A stretch of 64,000 nt of DNA, taken from a bacterium (GTDB lineage Bacteria > Bacteroidota > Ignavibacteria > Palsa-1295). Positions 1 to 13,405 of the stretch are shown here, in pieces (the stretch's first letter is position 1; every line of letters starts with the position of its first letter). The notes beneath the pieces are model-generated. The model saw only the letters and a list, made by a program, of their open reading frames with translations, was not told where the DNA came from and ran no database searches. The translations under genes and the position numbers were made by a program. The stretch is from the NCBI GenBank assembly GCA_037143335.1, contig JBAWZA010000010.1, positions 25,326 through 89,325 of the forward strand, in the 5' to 3' direction.

Positions 1-766
1 ACATGCCCACCTGTTTCAATATCGAAGCCAATCGCAAGAGGGTCATTATGCTTGATCGAGCTTTGTACTGAGTTGAATGGATGTGTCCAATCAATAGTAA
101 ACGAAACGCGATTTGTTATTTTAACTCTACCACCAACACCGAGTGCAATGATATTATGCGGATCACTTGCGTAGGTTACTAAATTTTGGTGAATGAGAGT
201 AGGGGAGAGCTGCAGGGAAATGTCATCAGAGAATTTTCTCCCCAAAAGTATCTGCTGAAAAAAGCTCATCCGCGACGTAAAGAAATTCGTAACGGTAGGA
301 TCGGAGTAGGTTGTCGAACTAAGCGTCATTCCTGCTACAAGCACAACAGTGAGCGGCACAGTGCGCAATCCCTGCGATTGCTGGAGCAGATCATATTTGA
401 TGAATCCGTCGAACTCTTTTTGACCTCTGCTTGAGCGACCGATGCCGACAAGAAGATCATTTGTCGGAGCGAAGTCAAAGCTAAACCGAGTGGAGGCTTC
501 GTCGAGTCCAAATAAATTTCCCGCACCTGAATTAACTGGACCGAATCGATGGAGAACCCGAAAATCCAGCGACCCGGCTCCGAGCATTTCTATAGATTGC
601 GAATTAATGATTCGTGTTGACTTGAACGCATTTTTTACATACTCTACTTCGGTGGTTGAGTCACCCACCAGATCAAGCAAGCCCACTGGTTCTTGGGCGA
701 AAGCGTTTGTGAGTGATACGAATGAACAAAGCGTAGCGAGTGCTACGAGCAAAAAATATTTCTTCA
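1..766 (-). CDS. putative outer-membrane beta-barrel-like protein, C-terminus cut by window edge (N-terminus MKKYFLLVALATLCSFVSL... signal peptide)
   Basis: Minus-strand frame is open to position 1. The ATG at 764-766 overlaps the stop of the upstream YceI gene (ATGA coupling). Signal-peptide-like N-terminus. No ORF-track entry because there is no stop inside the window. Confidence 0.4.
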
Positions 767-1318
767 TGGAAGCGGATCGAGCCAAACTTTTACTGTAATT
801 GTGACTTTGTTCGAAATTTTATCTTTGACAAGACCGGGGATTTCAATTCCAAAATCGGAAAGCAGGATCTGGAGATTTGCATACCCACTGACTTTACCAT
901 CGGCAACCTGAATCCCGCCAGTTGCAGGCACATCTTTAGTTACACCGTGCATGGTGAGTTTTCCTACCATTTTCACAAGATACGTCCCATTAACCCGGAA
1001 CTCAACGTTAGATAAATTCGTGACTTTACCTTTGTACGTCGCTTTCGGAAATTTATCACTCTCTGCGTAATTTTCATTGAAATGCTCCTGCATGAGTGCG
1101 CGCTTAAATTCAAATGCCTTCATGAGGATACCCATCTCAACTGCGGAAGTTTTTGTATCAAGTACGAATGTCGCTTTTTTATTCTCAGCAAGAATTTCCT
1201 CAACAGTGCCGGATGCATCGAATTTGATATTTGCAGACTTAGTAAAATATTTACTCTGCGCGTTAGCACCGCTATGAAAGAGCGTCAAGAGAATGCCAAG
1301 TGCATAGATCGTTCTTTT
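764..1318 (-). CDS. YceI-family periplasmic (polyisoprenoid-binding) protein
   Basis: ORF 764..1351. Sequence KYFTKSANIKFDASGTVEE...GKLTMHGVTKDV...GYANLQIL is typical of the YceI fold. Probable start MKRTIYALGILLTL (signal peptide) at about 1318. Confidence 0.6.
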   Translation of the reverse strand, partial: KRTIYALGILLTLFHSGANAQSKYFTKSANIKFDASGTVEEILAENKKATFVLDTKTSAVEMGILMKAFEFKRALMQEHFNENYAESDKFPKATYKGKVTNLSNVEFRVNGTYLVKMVGKLTMHGVTKDVPATGGIQVADGKVSGYANLQILLSDFGIEIPGLVKDKISNKVTITVKVWLDPLP

Positions 1319-1376
1319 CATCGTTTTCATCATAATCATCATCGTTATCAAAGTATGGATTTCAAAATAACCACTG

Positions 1377-1802
1377 CTATTTCTTTACAAAGCTACACTG
1401 AACTAATACGACATCAGAGAGCATTCCCGTGCAGATTCCTGTAACAGTGATTGTATCTGCTACTCGAACTTTCGCCGCATCACCGATGTGACGTGGATCC
1501 AATTCACAAGAAATGTTTGCCATCAGATCACCAGTCTCAAGCGCAATACTGACCGAGCCAGTCTGATCCTTGTCAATAGACTTTACGGCTCCTCTACAAG
1601 ATGTTACTTTATTGAGAAATCTTTTATTCGCTAGATTCTCGTCCTTTGCAAATTCAGCGAGTAAATTCGGTGCACTAATGGCAATGTCAGCTTTGGCACC
1701 TGATAAATCTGGATGTCCTCTCGTATATTCGCTATAACCATAGAACCCTGCGATGGCAAGTCCAATAACGATGATCAAAAAAATCCATCTTGTTTTACTC
1801 AT
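1377..1802 (-). CDS. membrane-anchored OB-fold protein (tRNA_anti-like/DUF-type)
   Basis: 141 aa with an N-terminal TM anchor followed by a small beta-rich domain. Resembles the tRNA_anti-like OB-fold family. Sits in the operon 41 nt downstream of the cytochrome gene. Confidence 0.35.
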   Translation of the reverse strand: MSKTRWIFLIIVIGLAIAGFYGYSEYTRGHPDLSGAKADIAISAPNLLAEFAKDENLANKRFLNKVTSCRGAVKSIDKDQTGSVSIALETGDLMANISCELDPRHIGDAAKVRVADTITVTGICTGMLSDVVLVQCSFVKK

Positions 1803-1842
1803 TCTAATCTATGTAACCCCTTGCTCAAAAGAGGGTTCCGCT

Positions 1843-2247
1843 TCAGTTCTGAGGCATTCCGATGTTAATCCAGTGCTGGACTTTCGCTATCGTACATGCA
1901 TCAAGTTTATTTCCACCAAAAGGCATTGGTACAAATGAGCCAGTGGTTTGATTTAAGTCGGCCATCAGCTTTCCATTCTTTGCTTGCACCACGAGATCTG
2001 ACAAATTATCTAACACAATATCACCGCCATTCGCATGAGCCGTTGCCTTGGTATGACATGAGGCGCAGTTATTGGAAATGATTGTTGAGATAGATTTAGC
2101 AGATATTGTATTATTATAAGACACACCAGAGGTGTCACACGTGACATTTTGCCCGGGGAGACCGTAGAGTTCTTCGACGGTATCGTTATAACAACCAGCG
2201 AAGAAAACGACTGCGAGGACGATTGGAATGAGTATTACGCGATTCAT
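1843..2247 (-). CDS. small c-type cytochrome-like lipoprotein (CxxCH, PSCyt1-like module)
   Basis: Internal start MNRVILIPIVLAVVFFAGC (lipobox). Heme motif NCASCH. A VPMPFGG and W-I-x-x-G tail occurs as in planctomycete-type cytochrome c domains. Confidence 0.5.
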   Translation of the reverse strand: MNRVILIPIVLAVVFFAGCYNDTVEELYGLPGQNVTCDTSGVSYNNTISAKSISTIISNNCASCHTKATAHANGGDIVLDNLSDLVVQAKNGKLMADLNQTTGSFVPMPFGGNKLDACTIAKVQHWINIGMPQN

Positions 2248-2309
2248 GTCTAAAAAAAAATCTGATTTTTTGCCTTTCAAACAAGTTGGAATGAGAAAAT
2301 GCAACCAAC

Positions 2310-3065
2310 TTATTTAGGATAACCGTTCCGAACCCAAATTTTTAGGGTATTGGCGTCGCAAATAGATAGTTTCGAGTATGGCGGCATTGCAATATATCCT
2401 TTTGAGTATGTGATTGTCGCCAACAGTTTTTTATTCGCGGCTTGCGCAGCGATTTCATCATAATTTGTTAACGAGATTTTCCCAGCAGGATTGCTCCCAG
2501 AATGGCATCCCGTGCAATTATATTTTATGATAGGCAGAACAGATCCTTCAAAGGTAACATTAGAATTTGAGCAGTCTCCGTCGCAGTAGTTATCTTTCGC
2601 TCCTTGGAGGATCCACTTGCGGATCAATGAATCCTCATGGGGTGTTGGTACAATTCCTGGTGGTTGCGGCATTTTATCCTCACCTTTTCTAGTCCTCGTA
2701 GTGAGAACCTTACTGGTTAACGGCGAATTAGGAACGACATTTTCGTCGTTCAACAATTGTGCATAATTTGTCAACGGCTGAGCTTTCGATGCTTTTGCAT
2801 CATGACATCCATGGTCTGGTAAGTCACAATGATTCTCAATCAAAGGTAGGATGTCGTTCGCAAAATAGACGCTATCAGGACTGCAAACATGTATAGGAGT
2901 TTGAAGAGCGGTGTCTATACCACCTCCACCATTTCCACCGCCTGTAGTCGTATCGGTAGCAGCCGCAAGTGGATGGGATAGCGTATGCTTACACGCTTCT
3001 GTGGTGAGCATTACACAAATGAAGATGAAAGCTCCAATGATGAGGGAAAGAATCGATTTTTTCAT
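2310..3065 (-). CDS. lipoprotein with two tandem PSCyt1-like cytochrome c modules
   Basis: 251 aa with a signal peptide. Module 1 is ILPLIENHCDLPDHGCH...KMPQPP...LIRKWILQGA (non-canonical C-x6-CH). Module 2 is VLPIIKYNCTGCHSG...MPPYSK...LKIWVRNG (canonical CxxCH). Confidence 0.5.
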   Translation of the reverse strand: MKKSILSLIIGAFIFICVMLTTEACKHTLSHPLAAATDTTTGGGNGGGGIDTALQTPIHVCSPDSVYFANDILPLIENHCDLPDHGCHDAKASKAQPLTNYAQLLNDENVVPNSPLTSKVLTTRTRKGEDKMPQPPGIVPTPHEDSLIRKWILQGAKDNYCDGDCSNSNVTFEGSVLPIIKYNCTGCHSGSNPAGKISLTNYDEIAAQAANKKLLATITYSKGYIAMPPYSKLSICDANTLKIWVRNGYPK

Positions 3066-3210
3066 AGTAAAAAAAGCGGCTTTATCGGAAATAGGTGATC
3101 CTGCCGACGAACCACCATCTGTAATGAGCCAAATAACCAGGAATTGTTTCAGCGTAAACGAATTTAGTCATGGGACAAATCCTGTGTTTTTTTCGTTTTT
3201 GGGCAAAATA

Positions 3211-4566
3211 ATGCAAATTGTCGCTCATACACTCGGTTGCAAACTCAATAGCGCAGAAACTTCTGCTATTGTCGAGCAATTTCGCCTACGGAATTGGGAA
3301 ATCACCCAACTTGGCACCGATACCGATGTTTTTGTCTTGAATACCTGTTCGGTCACCCAAAATGCCGAAAGAGAGTGCCGACAGATCATCAGACAAATTC
3401 TCCGCAAGAACCCGAAAGCCTTTGTTGCAGTAACTGGTTGTTATGCCCAACTCCGACCTGAAGAGATAGCAAGTATTGAGGGAGTGGATGTTATCCTTGG
3501 GGCGAAGGAGAAGTTCGATCTTTTCTCTCACGTTACTTCATTCGAGAAATTACCCGCGCCAGTTATTTTCTCCTCACCGATTGACGAAGCAACAGAGTTT
3601 CATATTGCCGCCACTTCTGACACAAACGAGCGAACCCGCGCATTCTTGAAGGTGCAAGATGGATGCGATTATACCTGTTCGTTCTGTACAATCCCACAAG
3701 CACGTGGAGAGTCGAGATCAACCTCAATTGAGAAGATTCTTGCCGAGGCGCGCATGCTATCTGCAGAGGGATTCCGCGAGATCATTCTCTCTGGTGTGAA
3801 TGTCGGAGATTTCGGCAGAAAAATAGGGACAAGTTTTTATGAGCTCGTTCAGGCAATCGAGAATGACCAAGCAATTGAATCACGCATCCGTATCAGCTCG
3901 ATTGAACCAAATTTATTATCGAACGAAATAATCGAGTTAGTTGCAAAATCGGCGAAGTTCTGTCCGCATTTTCATATTCCACTCCAATCAGGATCTGCTA
4001 ATGTATTACGTGCGATGCAAAGACGTTACACAGCAGATTTGTATCGCTCCCGAATTGATCGAATCAAAGAACTTCTGCCACAAGCAGCCATTGGTGCGGA
4101 TGTTATAGTCGGATTTCCTGGAGAGACGGATGAAGAATTTGAGGAGACGTACAAATTCTTAAGTGAGCTTGACATAGCATACTTGCACGTATTTACCTAT
4201 AGCGAACGCCCCGATACCAAAGCTACGTTGATGGGAAATCGTGTGATACCAACAAAACGCAAAGAACGTAATGCACGCTTGCGAATTCTCTCAGAAAAGA
4301 AGCGACACGAATTCTTCCGTTCGCAGCTTGGTAAGACTGTTGAAGTGTTATTGGAGCCAAGTGACTCAGCGTTACTCAATTCAGGACGAGTCGAAGGCTT
4401 TTCCGAAAACTATGTTCGTGTCTCCGTCAATAAATCCGAAGTAACTTCTGGGGCAGAACTTGTTCGCGTTTCTCTAACAGAAGTAGCAGGCGATCATGTT
4501 TGCGGCGACATTTCTGAAGTGCTTACCCGACGTGCTTATGAGTCACTATTGCCAATTATAGGATAG
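3211..4566 (+). CDS. mtaB: tRNA (t6A37) methylthiotransferase MtaB (radical SAM, MiaB-like)
   Basis: N-terminal MQIVAHTLGCKLNSAE. Radical-SAM CDYTCSFC motif. C-terminal TRAM-like region. The ORF-track start at 2911 is an unstopped upstream extension that overlaps the convergent gene. ATG at 3211 was chosen. Confidence 0.8.
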   Translation: MQIVAHTLGCKLNSAETSAIVEQFRLRNWEITQLGTDTDVFVLNTCSVTQNAERECRQIIRQILRKNPKAFVAVTGCYAQLRPEEIASIEGVDVILGAKEKFDLFSHVTSFEKLPAPVIFSSPIDEATEFHIAATSDTNERTRAFLKVQDGCDYTCSFCTIPQARGESRSTSIEKILAEARMLSAEGFREIILSGVNVGDFGRKIGTSFYELVQAIENDQAIESRIRISSIEPNLLSNEIIELVAKSAKFCPHFHIPLQSGSANVLRAMQRRYTADLYRSRIDRIKELLPQAAIGADVIVGFPGETDEEFEETYKFLSELDIAYLHVFTYSERPDTKATLMGNRVIPTKRKERNARLRILSEKKRHEFFRSQLGKTVEVLLEPSDSALLNSGRVEGFSENYVRVSVNKSEVTSGAELVRVSLTEVAGDHVCGDISEVLTRRAYESLLPIIG

Positions 4567-4570
4567 AAGC

Positions 4571-5839
4571 TTGTTCGATAAACTGACTCTAAACCTACAA
4601 AACCGGCGCACCGAGTGGTTGCTACTACTCGGAGTCTCGGTTGTCATTTTCATAATCCAAATTCTCACCCTCCGCCCACCAGTTGGTATTGGTGAGCCAT
4701 ATTGGATTGCGAAACATTTAGCCGCAGGCGAAGGATTTATCTATCCCTATCCATTTGACTCTGCATGGCTTCCAACCTGTTACATTCCACCGCTTTACGT
4801 ATGGTTTCATGCGGCAATTATTGGCATTGGAGGGGGATTAGTTGTTACGCAGATAGCTGGGTTAATATTCTTTCATGCCGCAAATTTTTTCTTCTACAAA
4901 TTTTTTCAACGCATTACCACAAAAACTATCGCCTTCATTGGTTTTTGCGGATTGGCGTGTTACGTTCCGCTGTGGCTCATCTCGCAAAAGCCGGATCCGG
5001 ATGGACTTAATTTATTACTCATTGCGCTCACGATACTCACCCTCGACCGCATAATCTCTAAGCAGAAAATTTCATCAATGTGGAATTGGGTGACTCTTGG
5101 AATTCTCTTTGGTTTACAAATTCTTGTTCGCCCTGATATTTTAATGGGTATCGTCCTCTTCGGCTTGTGGTTACTTTTTTATTCAGGCAAGTATTGGTTG
5201 CGCAACGGAATTCGATTCTGTTTTTCTGTAGCGATAGCACTTGCGATGGTCTTGCCGTGGACAATCCGCAATTATAATACATTTCATTCGTTCGTACTGG
5301 TAAGTTCAAATTCAGGGTTCAATTTTTTCATCGGGAATAATCCGATTGCAACAGGGGAATTTCAGCAAGGAGTCAGTAATGCCGAGAGTCAACGAATGGA
5401 TACTGCCCGCACAGAGTTTTACCGAGTACATACCTCGCCTGTCGAAAGAGATTCGTATCTATTCAAAGTAGGAAAGGATTGGGTCTTGGAGCATCCAGGA
5501 GATGCGCTTATCCTCGGTATGAAAAAATGTTATTATCATTGGTGGCAGCGGGAGTACGCTGGTGGCAGTATCGCCGCATCTGCTTGGATGGTGACGGGTT
5601 ATAAATTTATTTCGATCTTTCTATTGACCTTCGGATTCATCGGACTTTTTAGTTTGCGCTCTAAAAGTAGCCGTGCGTTGCTCATGACATTATTTTTGTA
5701 TTCAACCTTGATCTCTGTTATTTTCTTTACACAATCACGGCACCGTGCAATCAAGATTGACCCGTATCTTGTTACATTGTCTATCATCGGTGTTGGTGCG
5801 ACACTCAAAAAAATTAAGCGCAACGAATCAAAGCAATAG
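4571..5839 (+). CDS. polytopic membrane protein, putative GT39/GT83-like glycosyltransferase
   Basis: 422 aa with more than 10 predicted TM helices. TTG start 4 nt after the mtaB stop. Architecture resembles ArnT/PMT-type lipid-linked sugar transferases. Confidence 0.35.
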   Translation: MFDKLTLNLQNRRTEWLLLLGVSVVIFIIQILTLRPPVGIGEPYWIAKHLAAGEGFIYPYPFDSAWLPTCYIPPLYVWFHAAIIGIGGGLVVTQIAGLIFFHAANFFFYKFFQRITTKTIAFIGFCGLACYVPLWLISQKPDPDGLNLLLIALTILTLDRIISKQKISSMWNWVTLGILFGLQILVRPDILMGIVLFGLWLLFYSGKYWLRNGIRFCFSVAIALAMVLPWTIRNYNTFHSFVLVSSNSGFNFFIGNNPIATGEFQQGVSNAESQRMDTARTEFYRVHTSPVERDSYLFKVGKDWVLEHPGDALILGMKKCYYHWWQREYAGGSIAASAWMVTGYKFISIFLLTFGFIGLFSLRSKSSRALLMTLFLYSTLISVIFFTQSRHRAIKIDPYLVTLSIIGVGATLKKIKRNESKQ

Positions 5840-5841
5840 CT

Positions 5842-6603
5842 ATGAAAATCATATCATGGAATGTGAACGGCATCAGAGCCGCAGAAAAAAAAGGATTTAT
5901 CGAATATATGAAGAAGGAAAATCCGGACATCATGTGTTTGCAAGAGACGAAGGCTCATCCCGATCAACTCAGCGACGCACTCAAGAATATCCCTGGCTAC
6001 ACTTCCTACTTTGTCCTTGGCGATAAGAAGGGCTACTCAGGTGTCGCCATCTACACCAAGCAAACTCCCAAAGAAGTGATCGTCGGATGTGGCGAAGCCC
6101 GATTCGATACAGAAGGTAGGATCATTGCCGCGGAGTATGACGATTTCATACTTTTTAATATCTATTATCCGAATGGTGGCCGTGGACCAGATCGGGTTCA
6201 GTATAAGTTGGAATTCTACGATTTCATGTTAGCAAAATGGGAAGCACTTCGGAAGAAGGGAAAGAAACTCATCCTCACCGGCGATTTTAATACTGCGCAC
6301 AAAGAGATTGATTTAGCTCGACCGAAGGAAAATGCAAAAGTGACAGGCTTCCTTCCGGAGGAGAGAGCGTGGCTTGATAAAATTTCCACGATGGGGTACG
6401 TAGATATTTTCCGGCAGCTGAATCAAGAACCTGAATGGTACACATATTGGGATCAACTCACTCGCGCAAGAGATAGAAACGTTGGCTGGCGTATTGATTA
6501 CTTCTGGGTAACCTCCGATGTAGTCCCCATGGTGAAAGCCGCCCCGATCCGCATGGAAATCCTAGGTAGTGACCACTGCCCAATAGAGCTGCATTTGAAG
6601 TAA
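5842..6603 (+). CDS. xth: exodeoxyribonuclease III
   Basis: Starts MKIISWNVNGIRAAEKKGF...LQETK. Ends ...GSDHCPIELHL. Canonical ExoIII/AP endonuclease. Confidence 0.85.
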   Translation: MKIISWNVNGIRAAEKKGFIEYMKKENPDIMCLQETKAHPDQLSDALKNIPGYTSYFVLGDKKGYSGVAIYTKQTPKEVIVGCGEARFDTEGRIIAAEYDDFILFNIYYPNGGRGPDRVQYKLEFYDFMLAKWEALRKKGKKLILTGDFNTAHKEIDLARPKENAKVTGFLPEERAWLDKISTMGYVDIFRQLNQEPEWYTYWDQLTRARDRNVGWRIDYFWVTSDVVPMVKAAPIRMEILGSDHCPIELHLK

Positions 6604-6685: not shown

Positions 6686-7252
6686 ATGAGTGAGTCGAAA
6701 GAAGAGTCAAAGAAATCGAAGAAAGCTGAGAAGTTAGTGACAGCTACTCCTGCACCTGAAGAGATATTTCGTAAGTTTCTGAAAGATGGGGATTATCGGA
6801 ATACTCCTGAACGCTTCGAAGTGCTTGATGCTGTCATGAAATGGGATGACCATTTTGATGCTGATAATCTCTTTATAGATTTGAAGAACCGAGGTTCAAA
6901 GGTTTCTCGCGCTACGGTCTATAAGACTTTGAATCTTCTCCACGAATGCGGTCTTGTGTCTCGCTATCGTTTTTCACAAGGACATGCTCAATACGAAAAA
7001 ACAATTGATCGCCCCCACCACGATCATTTGATTTGCACAACGTGCGCCAAAATCATTGAGTTTGATAACAGCCGAGTCATTCAAATGCAAAATGATATTT
7101 GCATCGCGTATGGATTCAAGCCGCTCTACCATTCATTCCAGGTCTTCAGCGAATGCCTCGATGGGGCAATGGATATTCAAGATTGCGAGTATGCTCGTCA
7201 ACGTAAATCGGCTCTGATGAATCCGATGAAGAAGAAAAATCATATTGTTTAA
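6686..7252 (+). CDS. fur: Fur-family metal uptake regulator with a Lys/Glu-rich N-terminal tail
   Basis: Contains TPERFEVLDAV...HHDHLICTTCAKIIEF. Winged-helix plus HHDH and CxxC metal sites. Confidence 0.8.
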   Translation: MSESKEESKKSKKAEKLVTATPAPEEIFRKFLKDGDYRNTPERFEVLDAVMKWDDHFDADNLFIDLKNRGSKVSRATVYKTLNLLHECGLVSRYRFSQGHAQYEKTIDRPHHDHLICTTCAKIIEFDNSRVIQMQNDICIAYGFKPLYHSFQVFSECLDGAMDIQDCEYARQRKSALMNPMKKKNHIV

Positions 7253-7257
7253 CTCCG

Positions 7258-8052
7258 GTGTTCGAAAAATTATTTAACCAATTCGTCATTTGTTTTCGTG
7301 AGGGCACCGAGGCATCTCTTGTCATCATGGCGGTGATGGTCGCAATCAAAAAAAGGGGTGACGACCGCTTCCGTATTGCCGCATTGTGGGGAATCGCCAC
7401 TGCGATCGTCGCATGTGTTATCGGTGGATATGTACTCGGCACGATTGCATTAGTTACAAACGAAGGGCACAAAATAGAACTCATCCTCTATCTTTCAGCT
7501 ATGGTTGCGGTAACGGCGATGGTATTTTGGATGATGAGGACTGGAAAGAATCTGCGATTCGAGATTGAGAAAAAAGTGAATGCCTATAAGACCAGTAATT
7601 CGTTTCTTGCGATTGCCGGAGTTTTTCTCTTCGTATTCTTCATGATTGCTCGCGAAGGTTTCGAGACAGTACTCCTTCTACTCTCCTTCGGCTCTGGTGT
7701 TGGCGGGCACTATTATGTATCGGCAATGCTCTTGGGTATCCTTGCTGCGGTCGGGCTTGCATACGCATTATCCAAAGGACTTATAAAAGTCCAGATTGGA
7801 AAATTTTTGCAACAGACAGCTTTTGTGCTGCTCTTTTTTGTAGTCCAACTAATTTTTGATTCTTTGCACGAGGCCTACGAAGGTAATTTTCTTCCTGCTC
7901 CAACATCACAGGGCTGGGCGAACTTCATTGATTACGTCCATGATCAAGTGCCAATCTTCTCGTATATTGCGCTCGCACTCTTCGGATGCATCATCATCTA
8001 CCACCTTGCAAACTCCGTCACCAAGCGGACACCAAAAGGAATTGGAGCTTAA
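7258..8052 (+). CDS. FTR1-family iron permease (EfeU-like)
   Basis: Two RExxE motifs (FREGTEASL and AREGFETVLLL). 7 TM helices. GTG start 6 nt after fur. Confidence 0.65.
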   Translation: MFEKLFNQFVICFREGTEASLVIMAVMVAIKKRGDDRFRIAALWGIATAIVACVIGGYVLGTIALVTNEGHKIELILYLSAMVAVTAMVFWMMRTGKNLRFEIEKKVNAYKTSNSFLAIAGVFLFVFFMIAREGFETVLLLLSFGSGVGGHYYVSAMLLGILAAVGLAYALSKGLIKVQIGKFLQQTAFVLLFFVVQLIFDSLHEAYEGNFLPAPTSQGWANFIDYVHDQVPIFSYIALALFGCIIIYHLANSVTKRTPKGIGA

Positions 8053-8063
8053 AGTTTATGTAA

Positions 8064-8094
8064 TAAAAAAAGGCGAGTAATAACTCGCCTTTTA
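8064..8094. terminator. bidirectional rho-independent terminator
   Basis: Hairpin AGGCGAGT-aataa-ACTCGCCT flanked by an A-run on one side and a T-run on the other. Lies between the convergent FTR1 gene and the CAP-domain gene. Confidence 0.55.
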
Positions 8095-8113
8095 TGATTT
8101 ACATTTGGTAGTA

Positions 8114-9994
8114 CTATTTTACGACGACGATATTTCCTGTCGTGCGAGTATCACCGATAGTGAGTTCGTAGAGGTAAACTCCTGCAGGCTTATTCCCAGT
8201 TTCCCAAGTGATGTCGTATGCTTTCGGTGCCAAGTTACCGAGGTTGATTGAGGTCTCTACTTTGCCGGTCACATCATAGATCTTGAGCTGTGCAACTGCC
8301 GATTTGCGCAAAGTGAAGTTCACGTGAGCCTCATTCCGAGTTGGGTTCGGTGTGACTGAGAGATTGAAAGTGCTCGTGTTCGAACTTGCAACGCCCGAAG
8401 CTCCCGCCGTGAATTTTCTCCCTACACTTGGTGCGCTGAATCCGTTATCATTTTCAGCGCGAACTCTCCAGAAATATGTGGCGCCTGCCTCTAAGTCCGT
8501 AGCAGAGATTGAGAACTCATTCGTAAATATCGTATCACTACGAAAGGTTGTTGCAAAGGTATTATCCTTCGTGACTTCGATCCAATAGTCATTTGCTTGC
8601 GGAGTTGTTTCAACCCATTTAAGGTCGGCATCGGCAGTTCCGATGTTTGCTCCGTCAGCAGGGCTTGTGAGAACTGGTGCTTTGAGCGGTAAGCCGATAG
8701 AGAATGAGAACGTTGCTGAATACTGTCCCCAACCAATAGCATTCTTTGCGCGCACCTTCCAGTAATAGGTGGTACCATCTGTAAGTGTCTTCAATAATTT
8801 CGTCCCACCAGTGAGTGTAGAATCTTTGACAAGAGGTTTCGAGAAATCATTGCTTGTCGAGACTAATAATTGATACTTTGTCGTGCCAGCAATTTTCCCC
8901 CAAGTAATTGTCGCGGTATCAGCATGGACTACTGTATCCGAAATTGGGTATATACCAATCGGCTGATCAGGGAATCCAGTAGAACCTTGAATGAAGTCGA
9001 CTTTCACGTTGAATTGATCAATGGATGCTTGGTGCACAATATCAGCAGTTAACGGACCACCGGATGCGGTGACAGTTACTGTTCCTTCGCCAACGGTAAC
9101 AGGAATTGCATACCCACCAGAGGTTGAGCTAACCGCAGTCCAGCCATTTGATGCAGTAATCGTCACTCCGGGAAGTCCTTCGCCGACATCATAAAAATTA
9201 TTGTGATTATCATCACCATAGACGACGCCTGTGATGAAGATATTTCCTGGGATCGTGCCGAAGTCCTCAGTGGTGATAATTGGACCAACATTGCCATTAC
9301 CTGAGCCGCCATGAATAATACCAATTCCAATTTCAGCGTATGTATAGGTGCCGAAATTAATAAGATTTTCTCTGTGACCTAAACCAGGATTGCCGAAATC
9401 ATATTCGAACTCCATATTGATCTCGTCCAGATCACTACCATACGCAAAAATATTTTCACCTGCATACGTGTAATTAGTATATCCTGCTTTTTGCATCCGT
9501 GTAAAAGGTGACGAGCCATCAGTTGGGGAGTCATGCGCTTGATAGTTATGGTCAAGCATATCCTGACTATGAATTCGTGCGGCGGCAATAATATTTTTAT
9601 TAAACGCAAGTGGTTGTCGTGCAGGATAGCCTGCGAACGCACTTTTTACATCAGCGCGAGTAGGTGAGCCCCATTGCTGGAGCGAGTTGACTAAGTATGG
9701 ATTCTGAGTGTTGAATAACAACAATCCCTCTGCAGGGGGATTGGAGCGGGCTCTATTTATTAGCTCAAGCTCATACTGCTCTTCGGCAGTAGGATCGCCA
9801 TGATCATAGACGTCTAACTGGCCGAGTGGTTTGGTGTTGTGCTTAGCAGAAGTGGGGAAGCCTTTTGCAGTGACGGCAGGAACGAGTTTAGGATGTCGTA
9901 AGGCATCCTGAGTTTGTGCATGAGAGCTTGTAACGGCAAAAGCACCGCAAGCAATGACCGTAAGGAGTAATTTCGAGAAACGCATTGTAATCAT
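8114..9994 (-). CDS. secreted CAP/SCP (PR-1-like) domain protein with Fn3-like repeats and T9SS C-terminal sorting domain
   Basis: Signal peptide. CAP motifs HNYQAHDSP...GENIFAYG...GHRENL. C-terminal YLYELTIGDTRTTGNIVVVK. Start may be the MRFSKLL Met at about 9985. Confidence 0.6.
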   Translation of the reverse strand: MITMRFSKLLLTVIACGAFAVTSSHAQTQDALRHPKLVPAVTAKGFPTSAKHNTKPLGQLDVYDHGDPTAEEQYELELINRARSNPPAEGLLLFNTQNPYLVNSLQQWGSPTRADVKSAFAGYPARQPLAFNKNIIAAARIHSQDMLDHNYQAHDSPTDGSSPFTRMQKAGYTNYTYAGENIFAYGSDLDEINMEFEYDFGNPGLGHRENLINFGTYTYAEIGIGIIHGGSGNGNVGPIITTEDFGTIPGNIFITGVVYGDDNHNNFYDVGEGLPGVTITASNGWTAVSSTSGGYAIPVTVGEGTVTVTASGGPLTADIVHQASIDQFNVKVDFIQGSTGFPDQPIGIYPISDTVVHADTATITWGKIAGTTKYQLLVSTSNDFSKPLVKDSTLTGGTKLLKTLTDGTTYYWKVRAKNAIGWGQYSATFSFSIGLPLKAPVLTSPADGANIGTADADLKWVETTPQANDYWIEVTKDNTFATTFRSDTIFTNEFSISATDLEAGATYFWRVRAENDNGFSAPSVGRKFTAGASGVASSNTSTFNLSVTPNPTRNEAHVNFTLRKSAVAQLKIYDVTGKVETSINLGNLAPKAYDITWETGNKPAGVYLYELTIGDTRTTGNIVVVK

Positions 9995-10183
9995 TGTTCG
10001 AATAAATATCTGTATGAGTTTAGGAACTGATTATAACTCCGATACACACTATTTTGTTCAAATCCGAATGGGTATATTTTGCGTATAAAATTCCTGTATG
10101 CACCTCGTCGTTGTAACTTTTCAGCGTATATTCAGTTTATATAGAGAGCTAAACTTAGAACCAGCTTGTTTAAATTATTGCTA

Positions 10184-13100
10184 ATGAAGCTTAGTCTCCA
10201 GAAAGCATTTTATCTCCTCGCAACTTCGGTTGTCCTCCTTACCTCGACTCCTCTACTTGCTAAGTGGGACACAGTATTCGTCTGTCATTTTGGAGGCTTG
10301 TCCTCTGGTCCAAGGCGTGCCGTGACATGCGGATTTTTTTTCAATGAATTTCAAGGGATAATCGCATCGACAGGTGATGCCGGAATTTTCAAGACCCGCG
10401 ACGGAGGAAAAACTTGGAAACGAGCGAATACTCCTGCCACCTATGTCGGAGATTATACCTCCATATTCATGAAGGATACTCTCAATGGTTGGGCTACTAT
10501 TGAGGAGCCAGCGTTCAATCACGGAGGCGTTGCACAGCAATGTATTTTTCAGACAATTGATGGCGGTCTGAATTGGTCTGCCATTGGACCGAAAAATGAC
10601 TATGCCTGTATTTATCAAACTACGGGCACGCTTGTCGCCACGAGTAGAAACAAAACGAAAAGTGGCACGATTTCACCAGATAATGCTGCCTCATTCCAGC
10701 AAGGGATGCTCGTTGCTACGAACGGAGTTACATTCGTTGATGACCTCAATGGTGTCGCAACAGGATTTGAAAATACGTCGTGGAAACGAACAGTAGATGG
10801 TGGGAGGAACTGGATACCCATTGTGCCTCAAATTGCGATAGAAAGTTGGGGAGTCTATGGCGTCAAGAATACACCCATTTTTTATGCCGCACCCGAAACA
10901 GATCATAATAATCAGTCGAGCGGTGGTTTCAGTTCGGTTTACCGTTCATCCGATTATGGCGCTACGTGGTCTGCTGGGATTCCTCTGACATTTTATACTA
11001 CAGGTCATATCTCTGGGTTCAAGGATGCACATCTCTATATTCAGTTTGAAGATGACAATGCAAATCAAGCGCTGAATTTTGGAATGTTCCGTTCGGATGA
11101 TCAAGGCAACAACTGGATTCCAGTAGGAGGACCAAAACACATTAACGACAAGCGCTTTGTCGTCACGGGCTGTAACGGAGGTGTCGTTTATGCTTTCGAA
11201 AAAAATGGCAATGTCCTCAAAACGCGTGATGGTGGAGATGGCGGGGTGTATGAGCCACCCGTTGAACCACTCATTTATGGCAACCCAGTAGTATTTCAAG
11301 GACCTATTTGTTCGACAAGTGCTGCGACGTTAGAGATCGAAAATTTATTTTGCGGAGACGACTCGATTCTCTCAGCAATTGTGCTTGACTCCAATTCTGC
11401 ACTGATTTCAAGTGGAGCATTAAAGATTTCCACACAGCCTACATTCCCACTTTTTCTTGCATCAGGTGCGAAGGACTCCATCCGCTTTACCTGGGAGCCT
11501 TTGAAATTATTTCATACTGATACGACTGTTTATGTCCGTGTGAAGGTAACGTATTATTCTAAGGTACTGGGCGCGTCGTTCGATACTATTCTTACACTTT
11601 CTCTTCATGCGATTGGCGATACTCCGAATGCAGCCGTAAGCCCATCGCAAATAAATCTGGGGGATTTATCGTATTGCAATCCAGCTGATACTTCTTTCTG
11701 GATAAAAAACATCGGGTGCGATACTTTATATCTTACTGCGACAAGTACTACTGGCTCTTTACCCTATCAATTGTTGGATGCATCTGGCTTGCCTATAAAA
11801 CTTCCGATCATCATCAAGTCTGGTGATTCTACACGGATATTCATGCGAGTCTCATTGGCGGGTACTGGCACGTATTCGTCAACGCTAAAAATTTCACTGC
11901 GCCATCAAGGGATTTATCGTGATACTTCGGTTGCCATCTCGGCAGTGGGAGTTTCGGCTCAGGCGAAGTTCACGCTAAACCCGCCGCGTGACACACTCTT
12001 CGATATTTCGATGACACGTTGTGATTCGCCGAAAACATTTAAGCTAGTAATTTCCAATCCGGGTTGCGAAAATATCAAAGTGCTAAGCGCAACGTTAGTT
12101 GGGGATTCGGCTCCGAACATTTCTCTTCTGAATAGCACCCAACTCCCGGCGGATGTTAACTCTACGAGCACCACTACAAGGAGCTTCTCGGTTACTCTAG
12201 AAGCATCTGCAAAACAACTTGGGATGTACTCAGGCAGCCTAAAGATTACATACCAACTTCCCAATAGACCTGCTCGGGATACAGTAGTGCATTATTTTCT
12301 ACGAGTGAACTATGGATCCCGTATCCTTTCGGCCTCTGTTGATACGATTGACCTCGGCTCGATGAAATTATGCGACACCCGTGATTCATTTATTATTATA
12401 AAAAATATCGGCTGCGATACGATGCAGATTATCTCTGAAGTCATTTCAGGAAATGGAAATTTTACGCTCACTTCGAATCCACTTCCATACCTGATTGAGA
12501 ATGCGTTCGACAAAATAAAATTTCACTTCGAACCTGTAGGAGCAGGTTTGATAAAGGGGGCATTAACGGTATCAACTGTATCAGACTCTCTCCCGATACG
12601 CAAAGTATTTATCGTTGTACATGTGATTCCGACAGATACAATTGCTTTTGATATGCTCCCAACGCGTTCTACGTTTTACGCGGGTGATACACTCACTGTT
12701 CGCCTAATTCCTCGGGATAGTATTTTTGGAAGGGGATTATTACGGTTAGGGTTTGACATCAATTACAACGGCGATTTAGTCACTTTACTCGACCCACCAA
12801 CTGGTGGGAAGTCGGACTACGGCATCCTAATACAAGCGCCTTCCTTCGGCACACCGAAGCATACCACGACAAGAATAGACTTGATCGGAAATCCGACTCT
12901 CGAATTGCCGAAAGGACAGTCTGCGGCGGAGTTCAGATTTTATGTCAGACTCTCGGATTCGATTACGACGGAATTTGCACTCTCGAATATTGAGCTTAAC
13001 GGTAATGACAAAATATACCAACGTTGTAATCTCGGCATTTTTTCCAACAGCCTCGTTTATCAAATCGGTTATCATTGTGGTGATTCATTGCTTGTAAGGT

Positions 13101-13405
13101 TGATGCAACTCGGCGACTCACTACACATTTTTGCGACAGCTATCTACCCGAATCCGCTAACGGAGCTAAATAATTACCGATCGCAACTTAATGTCAAGAC
13201 TTCCAAATCGGGGAATTATGAAGTTCGTGTCTATGACGGAATTGGTCAACAGGTGTACACTCATTCAATTCAAACCGATACGCCCGGGACTTACTCACTT
13301 CTCATAAATGGAAAAGACTTTGCCTCGGGACTTTATTCATACATTCTCTTTGACTCAGGTCATCCAGTTGCCACTGCCCGGGGTAGATTTGTTGTTGCGA
13401 AGTAA
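10184..13405 (+). CDS. large secreted BNR/Ycf48-like beta-propeller protein with Ig-like (N-x-G-C-D-x-L) domains and T9SS CTD
   Basis: BNR-like repeats TRDGGKTW, TIDGGLNWS, TVDGGRNW, SSDYGATWS, RSDDQGNNW. Repeated NIGCDTLYL/NPGCENIKVL/NIGCDTMQI modules. C-terminal GLYSYILFDSG...RFVVAK. ATG at 10184 gives a clean signal peptide (ORF-track TTG at 10166). Confidence 0.6.
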   Translation: MKLSLQKAFYLLATSVVLLTSTPLLAKWDTVFVCHFGGLSSGPRRAVTCGFFFNEFQGIIASTGDAGIFKTRDGGKTWKRANTPATYVGDYTSIFMKDTLNGWATIEEPAFNHGGVAQQCIFQTIDGGLNWSAIGPKNDYACIYQTTGTLVATSRNKTKSGTISPDNAASFQQGMLVATNGVTFVDDLNGVATGFENTSWKRTVDGGRNWIPIVPQIAIESWGVYGVKNTPIFYAAPETDHNNQSSGGFSSVYRSSDYGATWSAGIPLTFYTTGHISGFKDAHLYIQFEDDNANQALNFGMFRSDDQGNNWIPVGGPKHINDKRFVVTGCNGGVVYAFEKNGNVLKTRDGGDGGVYEPPVEPLIYGNPVVFQGPICSTSAATLEIENLFCGDDSILSAIVLDSNSALISSGALKISTQPTFPLFLASGAKDSIRFTWEPLKLFHTDTTVYVRVKVTYYSKVLGASFDTILTLSLHAIGDTPNAAVSPSQINLGDLSYCNPADTSFWIKNIGCDTLYLTATSTTGSLPYQLLDASGLPIKLPIIIKSGDSTRIFMRVSLAGTGTYSSTLKISLRHQGIYRDTSVAISAVGVSAQAKFTLNPPRDTLFDISMTRCDSPKTFKLVISNPGCENIKVLSATLVGDSAPNISLLNSTQLPADVNSTSTTTRSFSVTLEASAKQLGMYSGSLKITYQLPNRPARDTVVHYFLRVNYGSRILSASVDTIDLGSMKLCDTRDSFIIIKNIGCDTMQIISEVISGNGNFTLTSNPLPYLIENAFDKIKFHFEPVGAGLIKGALTVSTVSDSLPIRKVFIVVHVIPTDTIAFDMLPTRSTFYAGDTLTVRLIPRDSIFGRGLLRLGFDINYNGDLVTLLDPPTGGKSDYGILIQAPSFGTPKHTTTRIDLIGNPTLELPKGQSAAEFRFYVRLSDSITTEFALSNIELNGNDKIYQRCNLGIFSNSLVYQIGYHCGDSLLVRLMQLGDSLHIFATAIYPNPLTELNNYRSQLNVKTSKSGNYEVRVYDGIGQQVYTHSIQTDTPGTYSLLINGKDFASGLYSYILFDSGHPVATARGRFVVAK

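What the first reader, a model, noticed from the sequence alone, without database searches (positions are those of the whole stretch)
1..3065. Tightly coupled five-gene operon: two CxxCH PSCyt1-like lipoproteins, an OB-fold protein, YceI and an OMP
The five minus-strand genes are separated by only 6, 41 and 26 nt, and the last junction is an ATGA stop/start overlap, so they are almost certainly co-translated. The 251-aa protein is an internal duplication of a roughly 90-aa module. Each module ends in an MP(P/Q)-x-P and W-[IV]-x-x-G tail, as in planctomycete-type cytochrome c (PSCyt1) domains. One module has a canonical CTGCH heme site. The other has an unusual C-x6-CH (CDLPDHGCH) site. A single-module paralog (CASCH) follows. 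Such cytochrome modules normally sit inside giant planctomycete proteins. Here they are stand-alone lipoproteins wired to a polyisoprenoid-binding YceI protein and a beta-barrel. That suggests a periplasmic redox/lipid-handling unit that, to my knowledge, is not described as a unit.
Basis: partly seen in the sequence, partly recalled or inferred. Interest (0 to 1): 0.5.

Follow-up and report, generated by a model that had tools for sequence, protein, structure and literature searches.

The report
Conserved Bacteroidota cytochrome–lipocalin–porin operon
This is a real five-gene operon, conserved in many Bacteroidota-group species, that encodes two heme-protein lipoproteins, a membrane-anchored OB-fold protein, a lipid-binding YceI protein and a small outer-membrane channel; it looks like an unstudied electron-transfer unit of the cell envelope, but its substrate is unknown.

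Summary
Five minus-strand genes lie at 1-3065. Gaps are 5 nt (62 if gene B starts at ATG 2247), 40 nt and 25 nt, then an ATGA overlap.

- **Families:** Pfam gives PSCyt1 (25.9 bits, cut-off 22), tRNA_anti-like, YceI and DUF5777.
- **Heme sites:** the 251-aa protein is an internal duplication. Module 1 has a family-wide CX4CH site, which in this genome is a rare CX6CH variant. Module 2 has CXXCH.
- **Structural relatives:** PccH and FoxE, both cytochromes of electron uptake from outside the cell, are the only clear matches.
- **Channel:** DUF5777 models as a 12-stranded barrel whose invariant charged residues sit, by strand parity, on the lumen-facing side.
- **Conservation:** of 80 species loci found through the diheme protein, 22 keep the same five-gene order and 58 keep the channel next to the cytochromes. 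Four of five loci found through the channel have the full cluster.
- **Literature:** no held paper mentions DUF5777 or this unit. The nearest described system is the proteobacterial cytochrome b561–YceI pair LcoA/BcnA.

Best reading: an envelope electron-relay module. Substrate and direction are inferred, not shown. I rate it a new variant of a known kind, of moderate interest.

The parts
2310..3065 (-). Gene A: 251-aa predicted lipoprotein (invariant Cys25) with two PccH/FoxE/PSCyt1-like class I cytochrome c modules. Module 1 has CDLPDHGCH (CX6CH, 2802-2828), with Met132-Pro133 as the likely distal ligand. Module 2 has CTGCH (2502-2516), with Met227-Pro228.
1843..2247 (-). Gene B: 134-aa predicted lipoprotein (signal MNRVILIPIVLAVVFFAGC) carrying one cytochrome c module, with CASCH at 2053-2067. 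An alternative TTG start at 2304 gives 153 aa.
   Evidence: E=1e-10 to module 2 of A; only a weak Cytochrome_CBB3 hit, E=0.003; 65 homologues conserve the lipobox Cys, C..CH, MP, a second Cys and W..G.
1377..1802 (-). Gene C: 141-aa protein with an N-terminal membrane anchor and a tRNA_anti-like OB-fold domain.
   Evidence: PF12869 at E=8e-18, 64.8 bits; the same position in related clusters; no solved relative by sequence.
764..1351 (-). Gene D: YceI-family lipocalin with a cleavable signal peptide. The start is TTG 1351, ATG 1342 or ATG 1330.
   Evidence: PF04264 at E=2e-16, 61 bits; the closest solved chain is Burkholderia BcnB (5ixg), E=1e-3; the conserved F.F..LMQEHFNE.Y.ES motif.
1..767 (-). 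Gene E: DUF5777 outer-membrane beta-barrel. The first 255 of 297 aa are in the window; the rest lies beyond position 1. Its start overlaps the stop of D (ATGA, 767-764).
3066..3210 (.). A 145-bp spacer shared with the divergent mtaB-like gene. It is the presumed promoter region of the operon.
   Evidence: no Rfam match; no motif shared with the upstream regions of 59 related clusters.

Best explanation
The five genes form an envelope electron-relay module that is typical of Bacteroidota and their relatives.

**Proposed arrangement**
- Two membrane-tethered c-type cytochromes, diheme A and monoheme B, carry three hemes in all. They sit in the periplasm next to a small 12-stranded outer-membrane channel (DUF5777).
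- By strand parity in the model, the channel's invariant charged residues face the lumen.

**Proposed mechanism (inferred)**
- A small redox-active solute crosses the outer membrane through the channel. Fe(II) or another soluble metal or shuttle is the most plausible candidate.
- The solute exchanges electrons with the PccH/FoxE-like cytochromes, which connect to the respiratory chain in the inner membrane.
- The YceI lipocalin probably holds a polyprenyl quinone. Together with the inner-membrane-anchored OB-fold protein it acts as a frequent accessory that supplies or buffers a lipid-soluble electron carrier.

**Shown versus inferred**
- Shown: gene structure, family membership, the conserved heme-type motifs, the barrel model and the conservation of the cluster.
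- Inferred: heme attachment, protein localisation, the substrate, the direction of electron flow and the role of YceI.
For: - **Conservation from the cytochrome side.** Of 80 species loci, 22 have the identical five-gene order and 8 more have all families in another order. 11 have cytochrome, YceI and channel. 17 have cytochrome(s) and channel only.
- **Conservation from the channel side (against 48).** Four of five look-ups show the full cluster.
- **Heme-site residues.** Both Cys-...-Cys-His motifs and both Met-Pro pairs are invariant.
- **Other redox proteins recruited to the cluster.** Rieske [2Fe-2S] proteins, some with a twin-arginine-type lipoprotein signal, occur in 7 loci, and L091 adds another. 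A Reeler-domain protein with a type IX secretion sorting tail occurs in 6 loci; the representative read carries a CTACH motif.
- **Heme expansions.** Bacteroidales and Lentimicrobiaceae MAGs carry 4-5-heme tandem versions of A.
- **Channel model.** DUF5777 is a 12-stranded barrel with about 60 invariant columns. Many of these are charged and alternate with hydrophobic residues along the predicted strands, as in the specific channels KdgM and NanC.
Against: - No experiment exists on any member, and no paper in the held library mentions DUF5777.
- A 12-stranded barrel is too narrow to hold a cytochrome, so this cannot work like MtrCAB.
- The similarity to PccH and FoxE is at the level of the fold (20-23% identity) and does not carry function.
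- The Foldseek search against the PDB gave no significant hit, and model A has only pLDDT 70.6.
- The iron link is circumstantial. Fur and FTR1 lie 3.6 kb away in the divergent gene string, and TonB- or iron-type neighbours appear in only some loci.
- No shared regulatory motif was found.
- YceI points as much to lipid or quinone chemistry as to metals.
- 16 of the 80 loci have the cytochrome with no channel nearby (6 of these are cut off near the gene), so the diheme protein also works in other settings.
Confidence: 0.4

Rival explanations
1. It is an antioxidant quinone-cycling system that works like proteobacterial LcoA/BcnA. YceI carries a polyprenyl quinol that quenches lipid peroxyl radicals in the envelope. 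The c-type cytochrome lipoproteins take the place of cytochrome b561 and re-reduce the quinone. DUF5777 gives access to, or releases YceI or its ligand into, the outer membrane.
For: - YceI is in the cluster or within the ~6-kb flank in about half of the 80 species loci, and in all five channel-side loci.
- The closest solved relative of D is Burkholderia BcnB.
- In Proteobacteria, YceI lipocalins are genetically linked, and sometimes fused, to a heme protein. Mutants show increased lipid peroxidation (PMC9113575).
Against: - No cytochrome b561 gene was found in the clusters examined.
- 17 loci keep cytochromes plus channel with no YceI or OB gene within about 6 kb, so YceI is not the core.
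- The invariant residues of the barrel are charged, not hydrophobic.
- c-type cytochromes are not known to reduce quinones bound in a lipocalin.
Confidence: 0.25
2. It takes up and oxidises a hydrophobic compound. DUF5777 acts as a COG4313/FadL-like channel for a hydrophobic molecule, YceI ferries the molecule across the periplasm, and the cytochromes serve an oxidising step.
For: - The YceI fold binds isoprenoids and fatty-acid derivatives, as summarised in PMC9113575.
Against: - The conserved strand residues of the barrel are charged.
- No oxygenase or dehydrogenase is conserved in the cluster.
Confidence: 0.15
3. The genes are ordinary housekeeping neighbours. A and B are general respiratory electron carriers, for example between alternative complex III and an oxidase, and they merely lie beside unrelated envelope genes.
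For: - Lipoprotein cytochromes c are common respiratory carriers in Bacteroidota (established knowledge).
- 16 of the 80 loci show the diheme gene without the other families.
Against: - The linkage to DUF5777 persists across orders (Bacteroidales, Chitinophagales, Flavobacteriales, Cytophagales, Saprospiraceae, Kapaibacteria) and through rearrangements of gene order.
- D and E overlap by ATGA here, and their genes overlap or abut in related loci.
- No respiratory-complex genes are adjacent.
Confidence: 0.1

Closest known systems
LcoA (cytochrome b561) – BcnA (YceI lipocalin) lipid-peroxyl detoxification system of Burkholderia and other Proteobacteria (PMC9113575)
   Same: A YceI-family lipocalin is encoded in one operon with a heme electron-transfer protein of the envelope. 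The closest solved relative of protein D is BcnB.
   Different: - The heme partner here is a pair of c-type lipoprotein cytochromes, not a membrane b561.
- An outer-membrane barrel and an OB-fold protein are added.
- YceI is dispensable in about a fifth of the related clusters.
- The host group is Bacteroidota and relatives, not Proteobacteria.
FoxE, diheme Fe(II) oxidoreductase of Rhodobacter ferrooxidans SW2 (PDB 5mab; foxEYZ operon)
   Same: - It is a two-heme protein with His/Met ligation and a structural disulfide (PMC10654088). Protein A has four further invariant cysteines.
   Different: - FoxE has two CXXCH sites; this family has CX4CH plus CXXCH.
- No FoxY (PQQ protein) or FoxZ is present.
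- Identity is about 20%.
- FoxE is soluble, not a lipoprotein.
PccH, periplasmic monoheme cytochrome of Geobacter sulfurreducens needed for electron uptake from electrodes (PDB 4rlr; Pfam PF22297)
   Same: - The PccH Pfam family is flagged on several close homologues of A.
   Different: - PccH has a single module.
- It has no lipid anchor and no linked porin or YceI.
- For the window protein itself the Pfam PccH hit is not significant (E=0.24).
Porin–cytochrome conduits (MtrCAB, PioAB, Geobacter Pcc) and the fused porin–cytochrome Cyc2
   Same: An outer-membrane barrel is encoded together with periplasmic or lipoprotein c-type cytochromes. In 6 related loci a protein secreted to the cell surface, whose representative carries a CXXCH motif, is encoded as well.
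   Different: - The barrel has 12 strands, not the much larger barrels of those conduits, so it cannot enclose a cytochrome.
- There are only 3 hemes.
- Cytochrome and barrel are separate genes.
- No sequence relation to these systems was tested or seen.
PSCyt1 (PF07635) domains of large planctomycete proteins
   Same: Module 2 of A passes the Pfam cut-off. It shares the CXXCH ... MPP ... W-I-x-x-G layout.
   Different: - Here the modules make up small stand-alone lipoproteins.
- Module 1 and protein B fall below the model's threshold.
- The PSCyt2 and PSD1 partner domains are absent.

Membership tests
PSCyt1 (PF07635) | Pfam HMM score at or above the gathering cut-off (22 bits) | tested here: met
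   25.9 bits on residues 184-229 of A (module 2). Module 1 of A and protein B are not matched by this model.
Class I c-type cytochrome | An N-terminal CXXCH heme-attachment site with a Met (or His) sixth ligand downstream | tested here: met
   CTGCH with invariant M227-P228 in A module 2. CASCH with a conserved MP in B. Module 1 has CX6CH (CX4CH in the rest of the family) with invariant M132-P133.
Class I c-type cytochrome | An all-alpha cytochrome c fold | tested here: met
   [not shown]
Class I c-type cytochrome | Covalently bound heme | not testable with these tools
   This needs heme staining or mass spectrometry of the expressed proteins. It is especially open for the CX4CH and CX6CH sites.
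YceI (PF04264) | Pfam HMM score above the cut-off (23.7 bits) | tested here: met
   61.1 bits, E=2e-16; the closest solved chain is BcnB (5ixg).
YceI (PF04264) | Binds a polyisoprenoid or quinone ligand | not testable with these tools
   Ligand binding is known only from crystal structures of other members, as cited in PMC9113575.
tRNA_anti-like OB fold (PF12869) | Pfam HMM score above the cut-off (23.5 bits) | tested here: met
   64.8 bits, E=8e-18, covering nearly the whole profile.
DUF5777 (PF19089) | Pfam HMM score above the cut-off (23.1 bits) and an outer-membrane beta-barrel fold | tested here: met
   [not shown]
LcoA/BcnA system | A cytochrome b561 membrane protein encoded next to the YceI gene | tested here: not met
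   no b561 gene in the operon or its flanks. The related clusters examined also lack one.
foxEYZ Fe(II)-oxidation operon | FoxE together with FoxY (PQQ protein) and FoxZ (inner-membrane transporter) | tested here: not met
   neither is among the neighbours. The similarity to FoxE is only distant.
Porin–cytochrome conduit (MtrCAB/Pcc type) | A large barrel that encloses a multiheme (8-10 or more hemes) cytochrome | tested here: not met
   12 strands; 2 + 1 heme-type motifs in this genome.
Bacterial lipoprotein (A and B) | A signal peptide ending in a lipobox with an invariant Cys | tested here: inconclusive
   Cys25 of A is invariant, and the Cys of B's ...FFAGC is conserved in at least 90% of 65 homologues. 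The -3 to -1 positions of A (T-E-A) are atypical, and no dedicated signal-peptide predictor was available.

The most novel reading that the evidence does not exclude
The cluster is a third architecture for moving electrons across a Gram-negative outer membrane, particular to Bacteroidota and their relatives. A small, specific 12-stranded channel passes a redox shuttle or Fe(II). PccH/FoxE-like lipoprotein cytochromes with a CX4CH heme site work on the periplasmic side. In some species a Rieske protein and a heme-carrying Reeler-domain protein secreted by type IX secretion are added. This would give a very large and ecologically dominant phylum a previously unrecognised route for iron oxidation or reduction, or for extracellular electron exchange.
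Probability: 0.15. Interest if true: 0.85.

Novelty: new variant of a known kind. Interest (0 to 1): 0.55.

Why it matters
- Every component belongs to a catalogued domain family, yet the five-gene unit has no entry in the literature searched. It still occurs in hundreds of species across most orders of Bacteroidota and in their Kapaibacteria/Ignavibacteriota-like relatives.
- Extracytoplasmic redox chemistry in this phylum is poorly known. A conserved cytochrome-plus-channel module, with a YceI lipocalin often attached, is a concrete and genetically testable entry point.
- It also bears on what YceI proteins do. They are one of the most widespread bacterial protein families without a settled function. 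Here they pair with heme proteins for a second, independent time.
- The family-wide CX4CH site, with rare CX5CH and CX6CH variants, is a natural test set for how tolerant cytochrome c maturation in this phylum is to the spacing of the two cysteines.

Tried and rejected
- **Riboswitch or leader RNA upstream of A:** nothing in Rfam at E≤1 near 3066-3210.
- **Internal terminators or promoters:** the consensus scan is no better than shuffles.
- **Shared regulator site:** a 7-mer enrichment over 59 upstream regions gave only AT-rich words and no Fur-box-like motif.
- **Further conserved neighbours:** all-against-all clustering of ORFs from the loci found nothing beyond the five families. The exceptions are antisense shadow ORFs and the patchy Rieske, Reeler and LytS/LytTR genes.
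- **Solved relatives:** none by sequence for DUF5777 or for the OB protein.
- **AFDB fold search for the barrel:** the library was unavailable.
- **Literature:** searches for DUF5777, for PSCyt1, and for combinations of YceI, cytochrome and Bacteroidetes or Flavobacter terms found nothing on this unit. The Riemerella iron-limitation RNA-seq lists a YceI gene as about 2-fold up, but not its neighbours.
- **Rejected readings:** an MtrCAB-type conduit, because the barrel is too small; membership of the foxEYZ or LcoA/BcnA systems, because the defining partners are absent.
Full report
**1. What is in the sequence**

Five minus-strand genes fill window 1-3065.

| Gene | Coordinates | Size | Note |
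|---|---|---|---|
| A | 2310-3065 | 251 aa | |
| B | 1843-2247 | 134 aa | from ATG; a TTG at 2304 gives the 153-aa form of the public annotation |
| C | 1377-1802 | 141 aa | |
| D | 764-1351 | 195 aa | from TTG; ATG alternatives at 1342 and 1330 |
| E | 1-767 | 255 of 297 aa | starts at 767 and runs off the window start |

The public contig that carries the identical protein A (L006) shows E complete at 297 aa. It is followed by a convergent gene. The gene upstream of A is a divergent mtaB-like radical-SAM gene (3211-4566 +). The unit is therefore exactly five genes.

The gaps are 5 nt (62 with the ATG start of B), 40 nt and 25 nt (34 or more with an ATG start of D). D and E overlap by ATGA at 767-764. 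The simple scan shows no credible internal terminator. No Rfam element lies upstream.

**2. Family assignments**

- Pfam gives PSCyt1 at 25.9 bits on A residues 184-229 (cut-off 22). The Cytochrome_CBB3 score of 26 bits falls just below its cut-off of 27.
- B reaches only a sub-threshold Cytochrome_CBB3 hit (E=0.003).
- C is tRNA_anti-like (E=8e-18), D is YceI (E=2e-16) and E is DUF5777 (E=2e-69).
- NCBIfam adds nothing above its cut-offs.
- Module 1 of A matches module 2 with E=3e-6 at 26% identity.
- B matches module 2 of A with E=1e-10.

So the internal duplication and the single-module paralogue are both real.

**3. The cytochrome family**

A search with A returned 653 protein clusters, mostly from Bacteroidota metagenome-assembled genomes. 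When named at all, they are called "c-type cytochrome domain-containing protein".

In an alignment of 26 two-module members the following are invariant:
- the lipobox Cys25;
- both heme-type motifs (C80...C87-H88 and C184-x-G-C187-H188);
- both Met-Pro pairs (132-133 and 227-228);
- both Trp tails (W151, W244);
- four further cysteines (C61, C161, C165, C236), which probably form one disulfide per module (inference).

Module 1 reads C-x4-CH in nearly all members, typically CAMSGCH. Across 268 unique family cytochromes I counted 309 CXXCH, 235 CX4CH, 4 CX5CH and 4 CX6CH motifs. The window's CDLPDHGCH is thus a rare 2-residue insertion variant of a family-wide CX4CH site. Three of the four CX6CH variants read x-H-G-C-H.

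CX4CH heme sites are known elsewhere, for example in a heme of the anammox hydrazine dehydrogenase (paper found) and, from my own knowledge, in cytochrome c3. Heme binding at this site is therefore plausible, but it is not shown here.

**4. Structural relatives of A**

- A profile of the family finds FoxE (5mab) at E=2.6e-6 among solved structures. The heme domain of hydrazine synthase alpha, cytochromes c6 and PccH follow weakly.
- The AlphaFold model (pLDDT 70.6) is helical.
- Foldseek gives only non-significant hits to cytochromes c6 and c551.
- PccH is the periplasmic cytochrome whose loss blocks electron uptake from electrodes in Geobacter (PMC13591261). FoxE is the diheme protein thought to take electrons from Fe(II) in Rhodobacter (PMC10654088).

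This places A and B in a PccH/FoxE/PSCyt1-like branch of class I cytochromes. It is a lead to function, not proof of it.

**5. The barrel**

- DUF5777 is a large family: 5944 hits. The 120 best-scoring hits listed are all stand-alone proteins, nearly all of about 275-315 aa, and 47-69% identical to E.
- Sixty-four columns are invariant in 25 sequences. They include RxLHRFG, GRS, E-x-D-G-x-x-K and DIETGGHVFQxHxSN.
- The model (pLDDT 79.8) has 12 strands.
- No solved protein is related by sequence.
- Along the predicted strands, invariant charged residues (D68, R70, R74, R94, D98, E118, D120, K124, D249, E251, Q258, H260) alternate with hydrophobic ones. I read this as a conserved polar lumen, as in specific channels. 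This is inferred from strand parity, because I could not inspect coordinates.

**6. Conservation of the unit**

Look-ups of individual homologues of A gave these arrangements:
- the same order, A-B-OB-YceI-DUF5777, in two unrelated contigs;
- DUF5777-YceI-A preceded by two Rieske genes in Aquirufa rosea;
- a split arrangement in a Bacteroidales genome.

A scan of one genome per species found 548 confirmed matches to the pattern taken from A, and 80 loci were fetched. I annotated them with iterative HMM searches seeded on the five proteins and tallied the result:

| Arrangement | Loci |
|---|---|
| Identical five-gene order | 22 |
| All families, another order | 8 |
| Cytochrome + YceI + channel | 11 |
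| Cytochrome(s) + channel only | 17 |
| Cytochrome(s) alone (6 of them cut off near the gene) | 16 |
| Truncated, consistent with the common order | 6 |

Starting instead from the channel, four of five look-ups show the full five-gene cluster. These include the complete genome of Flavihumibacter fluvii. The fifth shows OB-YceI-channel without cytochromes, in a genome whose relative has them.

The constant core is therefore cytochromes plus DUF5777. YceI and the OB protein are frequent accessories.

Other genes join the cluster in some lineages:
- Rieske proteins, some with a twin-arginine-type lipoprotein signal, in 7 loci, and another directly after the channel in L091;
- a Reeler-domain protein with a type IX secretion sorting tail in 6 loci, whose representative carries a CTACH motif;
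- a LytS-type kinase with a LytTR regulator in about 10 loci;
- an ECF sigma factor with a putative anti-sigma protein in L091 and L092.

Bacteroidales and Lentimicrobiaceae genomes carry 4-5-heme tandem versions of A.

**7. How it probably works**

The following is inferred from signal sequences read directly, not from a predictor:
- A and B are lipoproteins.
- C has an uncleaved membrane anchor.
- D and E have cleavable signal peptides.

All five products would therefore be extracytoplasmic.

My preferred reading (confidence 0.4) is an electron-relay module. A small redox-active solute crosses the outer membrane through the channel; Fe(II) or a soluble shuttle is the most plausible candidate. 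It exchanges electrons with the three hemes of A and B, which connect to the respiratory chain. YceI carries a polyprenyl quinone as an accessory.

The main rival (0.25) is an antioxidant quinone cycle like LcoA/BcnA (PMC9113575). Against it:
- no cytochrome b561 gene was found in the clusters examined;
- YceI is missing from 17 loci that keep the cytochromes and the channel;
- the conserved barrel residues are charged, not hydrophobic.

Weaker rivals are uptake and oxidation of a hydrophobic compound (0.15) and chance neighbourhood of housekeeping cytochromes (0.1). The latter is contradicted by linkage that survives rearrangement across several orders.

The iron link in this particular genome is circumstantial. 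A Fur-family gene (6686-7252) and an FTR1 permease gene (7258-8052) close the divergent gene string. No shared upstream motif was found.

**8. Comparison with known systems and novelty**

- It is not a member of the LcoA/BcnA, foxEYZ or MtrCAB/Pcc systems. In each case a defining partner or feature was looked for and not found.
- No paper in the held library mentions DUF5777. The five papers that mention PSCyt1 do not deal with this cluster. Combined searches for YceI, cytochrome and Bacteroidetes or Flavobacter terms found nothing relevant.
- I rate it a new variant of a known kind: a heme protein plus YceI lipocalin, or a porin plus periplasmic cytochromes. Interest is moderate (0.55).
- It is widespread, tightly organised, wholly uncharacterised and experimentally approachable. 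Its function, however, rests on inference only.

**9. Source organism**

The exact protein is annotated only as "MAG: bacterium". Among its nearest named relatives for A and E are Candidatus Kapaibacterium, Ignavibacteriota and Bacteroidota genomes.

Noticed in passing
window 6686-8052 (+): A Fur-family regulator (188 aa, long for the family) is followed 5 nt later by an FTR1-type iron permease. These two genes end a same-strand string (mtaB-like 3211-4566, PMT_2 glycosyltransferase 4571-5839, exonuclease III 5842-6603). That string diverges from the cytochrome operon across the 145-bp spacer.
   Followed up: partly
window 8000-8133: Weak Rfam sRNA-type matches lie on both strands just after the FTR1 gene. 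They most likely reflect a bidirectional terminator hairpin between FTR1 and the convergent 626-aa gene.
   Followed up: no
window 8114-9994 (-) and 10166-13405 (+): Two large proteins carry type IX secretion C-terminal sorting domains (Por_Secre_tail), according to the public contig's precomputed Pfam hits. This marks the organism as a type IX secretion user.
   Followed up: no
window 2244-2309: The start of gene B is ambiguous. The public annotation uses TTG 2304 (153 aa). ATG 2247 gives a clean lipoprotein signal peptide and a length close to the shorter ORFs of this family in related clusters (about 120-135 aa).
   Followed up: partly
window 2802-2828; L004 and L011: Three of the four known CX6CH variants of module 1 share an extra His two residues before the second Cys (x-H-G-C-H). 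This may be a lineage-specific change in the environment of the heme site.
   Followed up: partly
window 2982-2993 (A residues 25-28); homologues P0002-P0120: The residues after the lipobox Cys are nearly invariant C-K-H-[E/D]-P in family A (C-K-H-T in the window protein) and C-Y-x-D in family B. These could be sorting signals or ligands. They remain unexplained.
   Followed up: no
L020, L023, L029, L034, L037, L039, L042-L044, L069: Bacteroidales and Lentimicrobiaceae genomes carry tandemly expanded versions of protein A with four or five heme-type motifs. The rest of the cluster is unchanged.
   Followed up: partly
L005, L013, L014, L040, L053, L060: A Reeler-domain protein with a type IX secretion sorting tail sits in or beside the cluster; the representative read (L013) has an N-terminal CTACH motif. 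This suggests a heme protein at the cell surface in some species.
   Followed up: partly
L090 compared with L092: Two related contigs share the same flanking genes. L090, a Sediminibacterium genome, lacks the ECF sigma factor, the putative anti-sigma protein and both cytochrome genes but keeps OB-YceI-DUF5777. This is a natural deletion variant.
   Followed up: no
L091 814-2732 and L092 716-2676: An ECF sigma factor and a 436-464-aa protein with a beta-barrel-type C-terminal domain lie directly upstream of the five-gene cluster on the same strand. This is a possible dedicated regulator pair.
   Followed up: no
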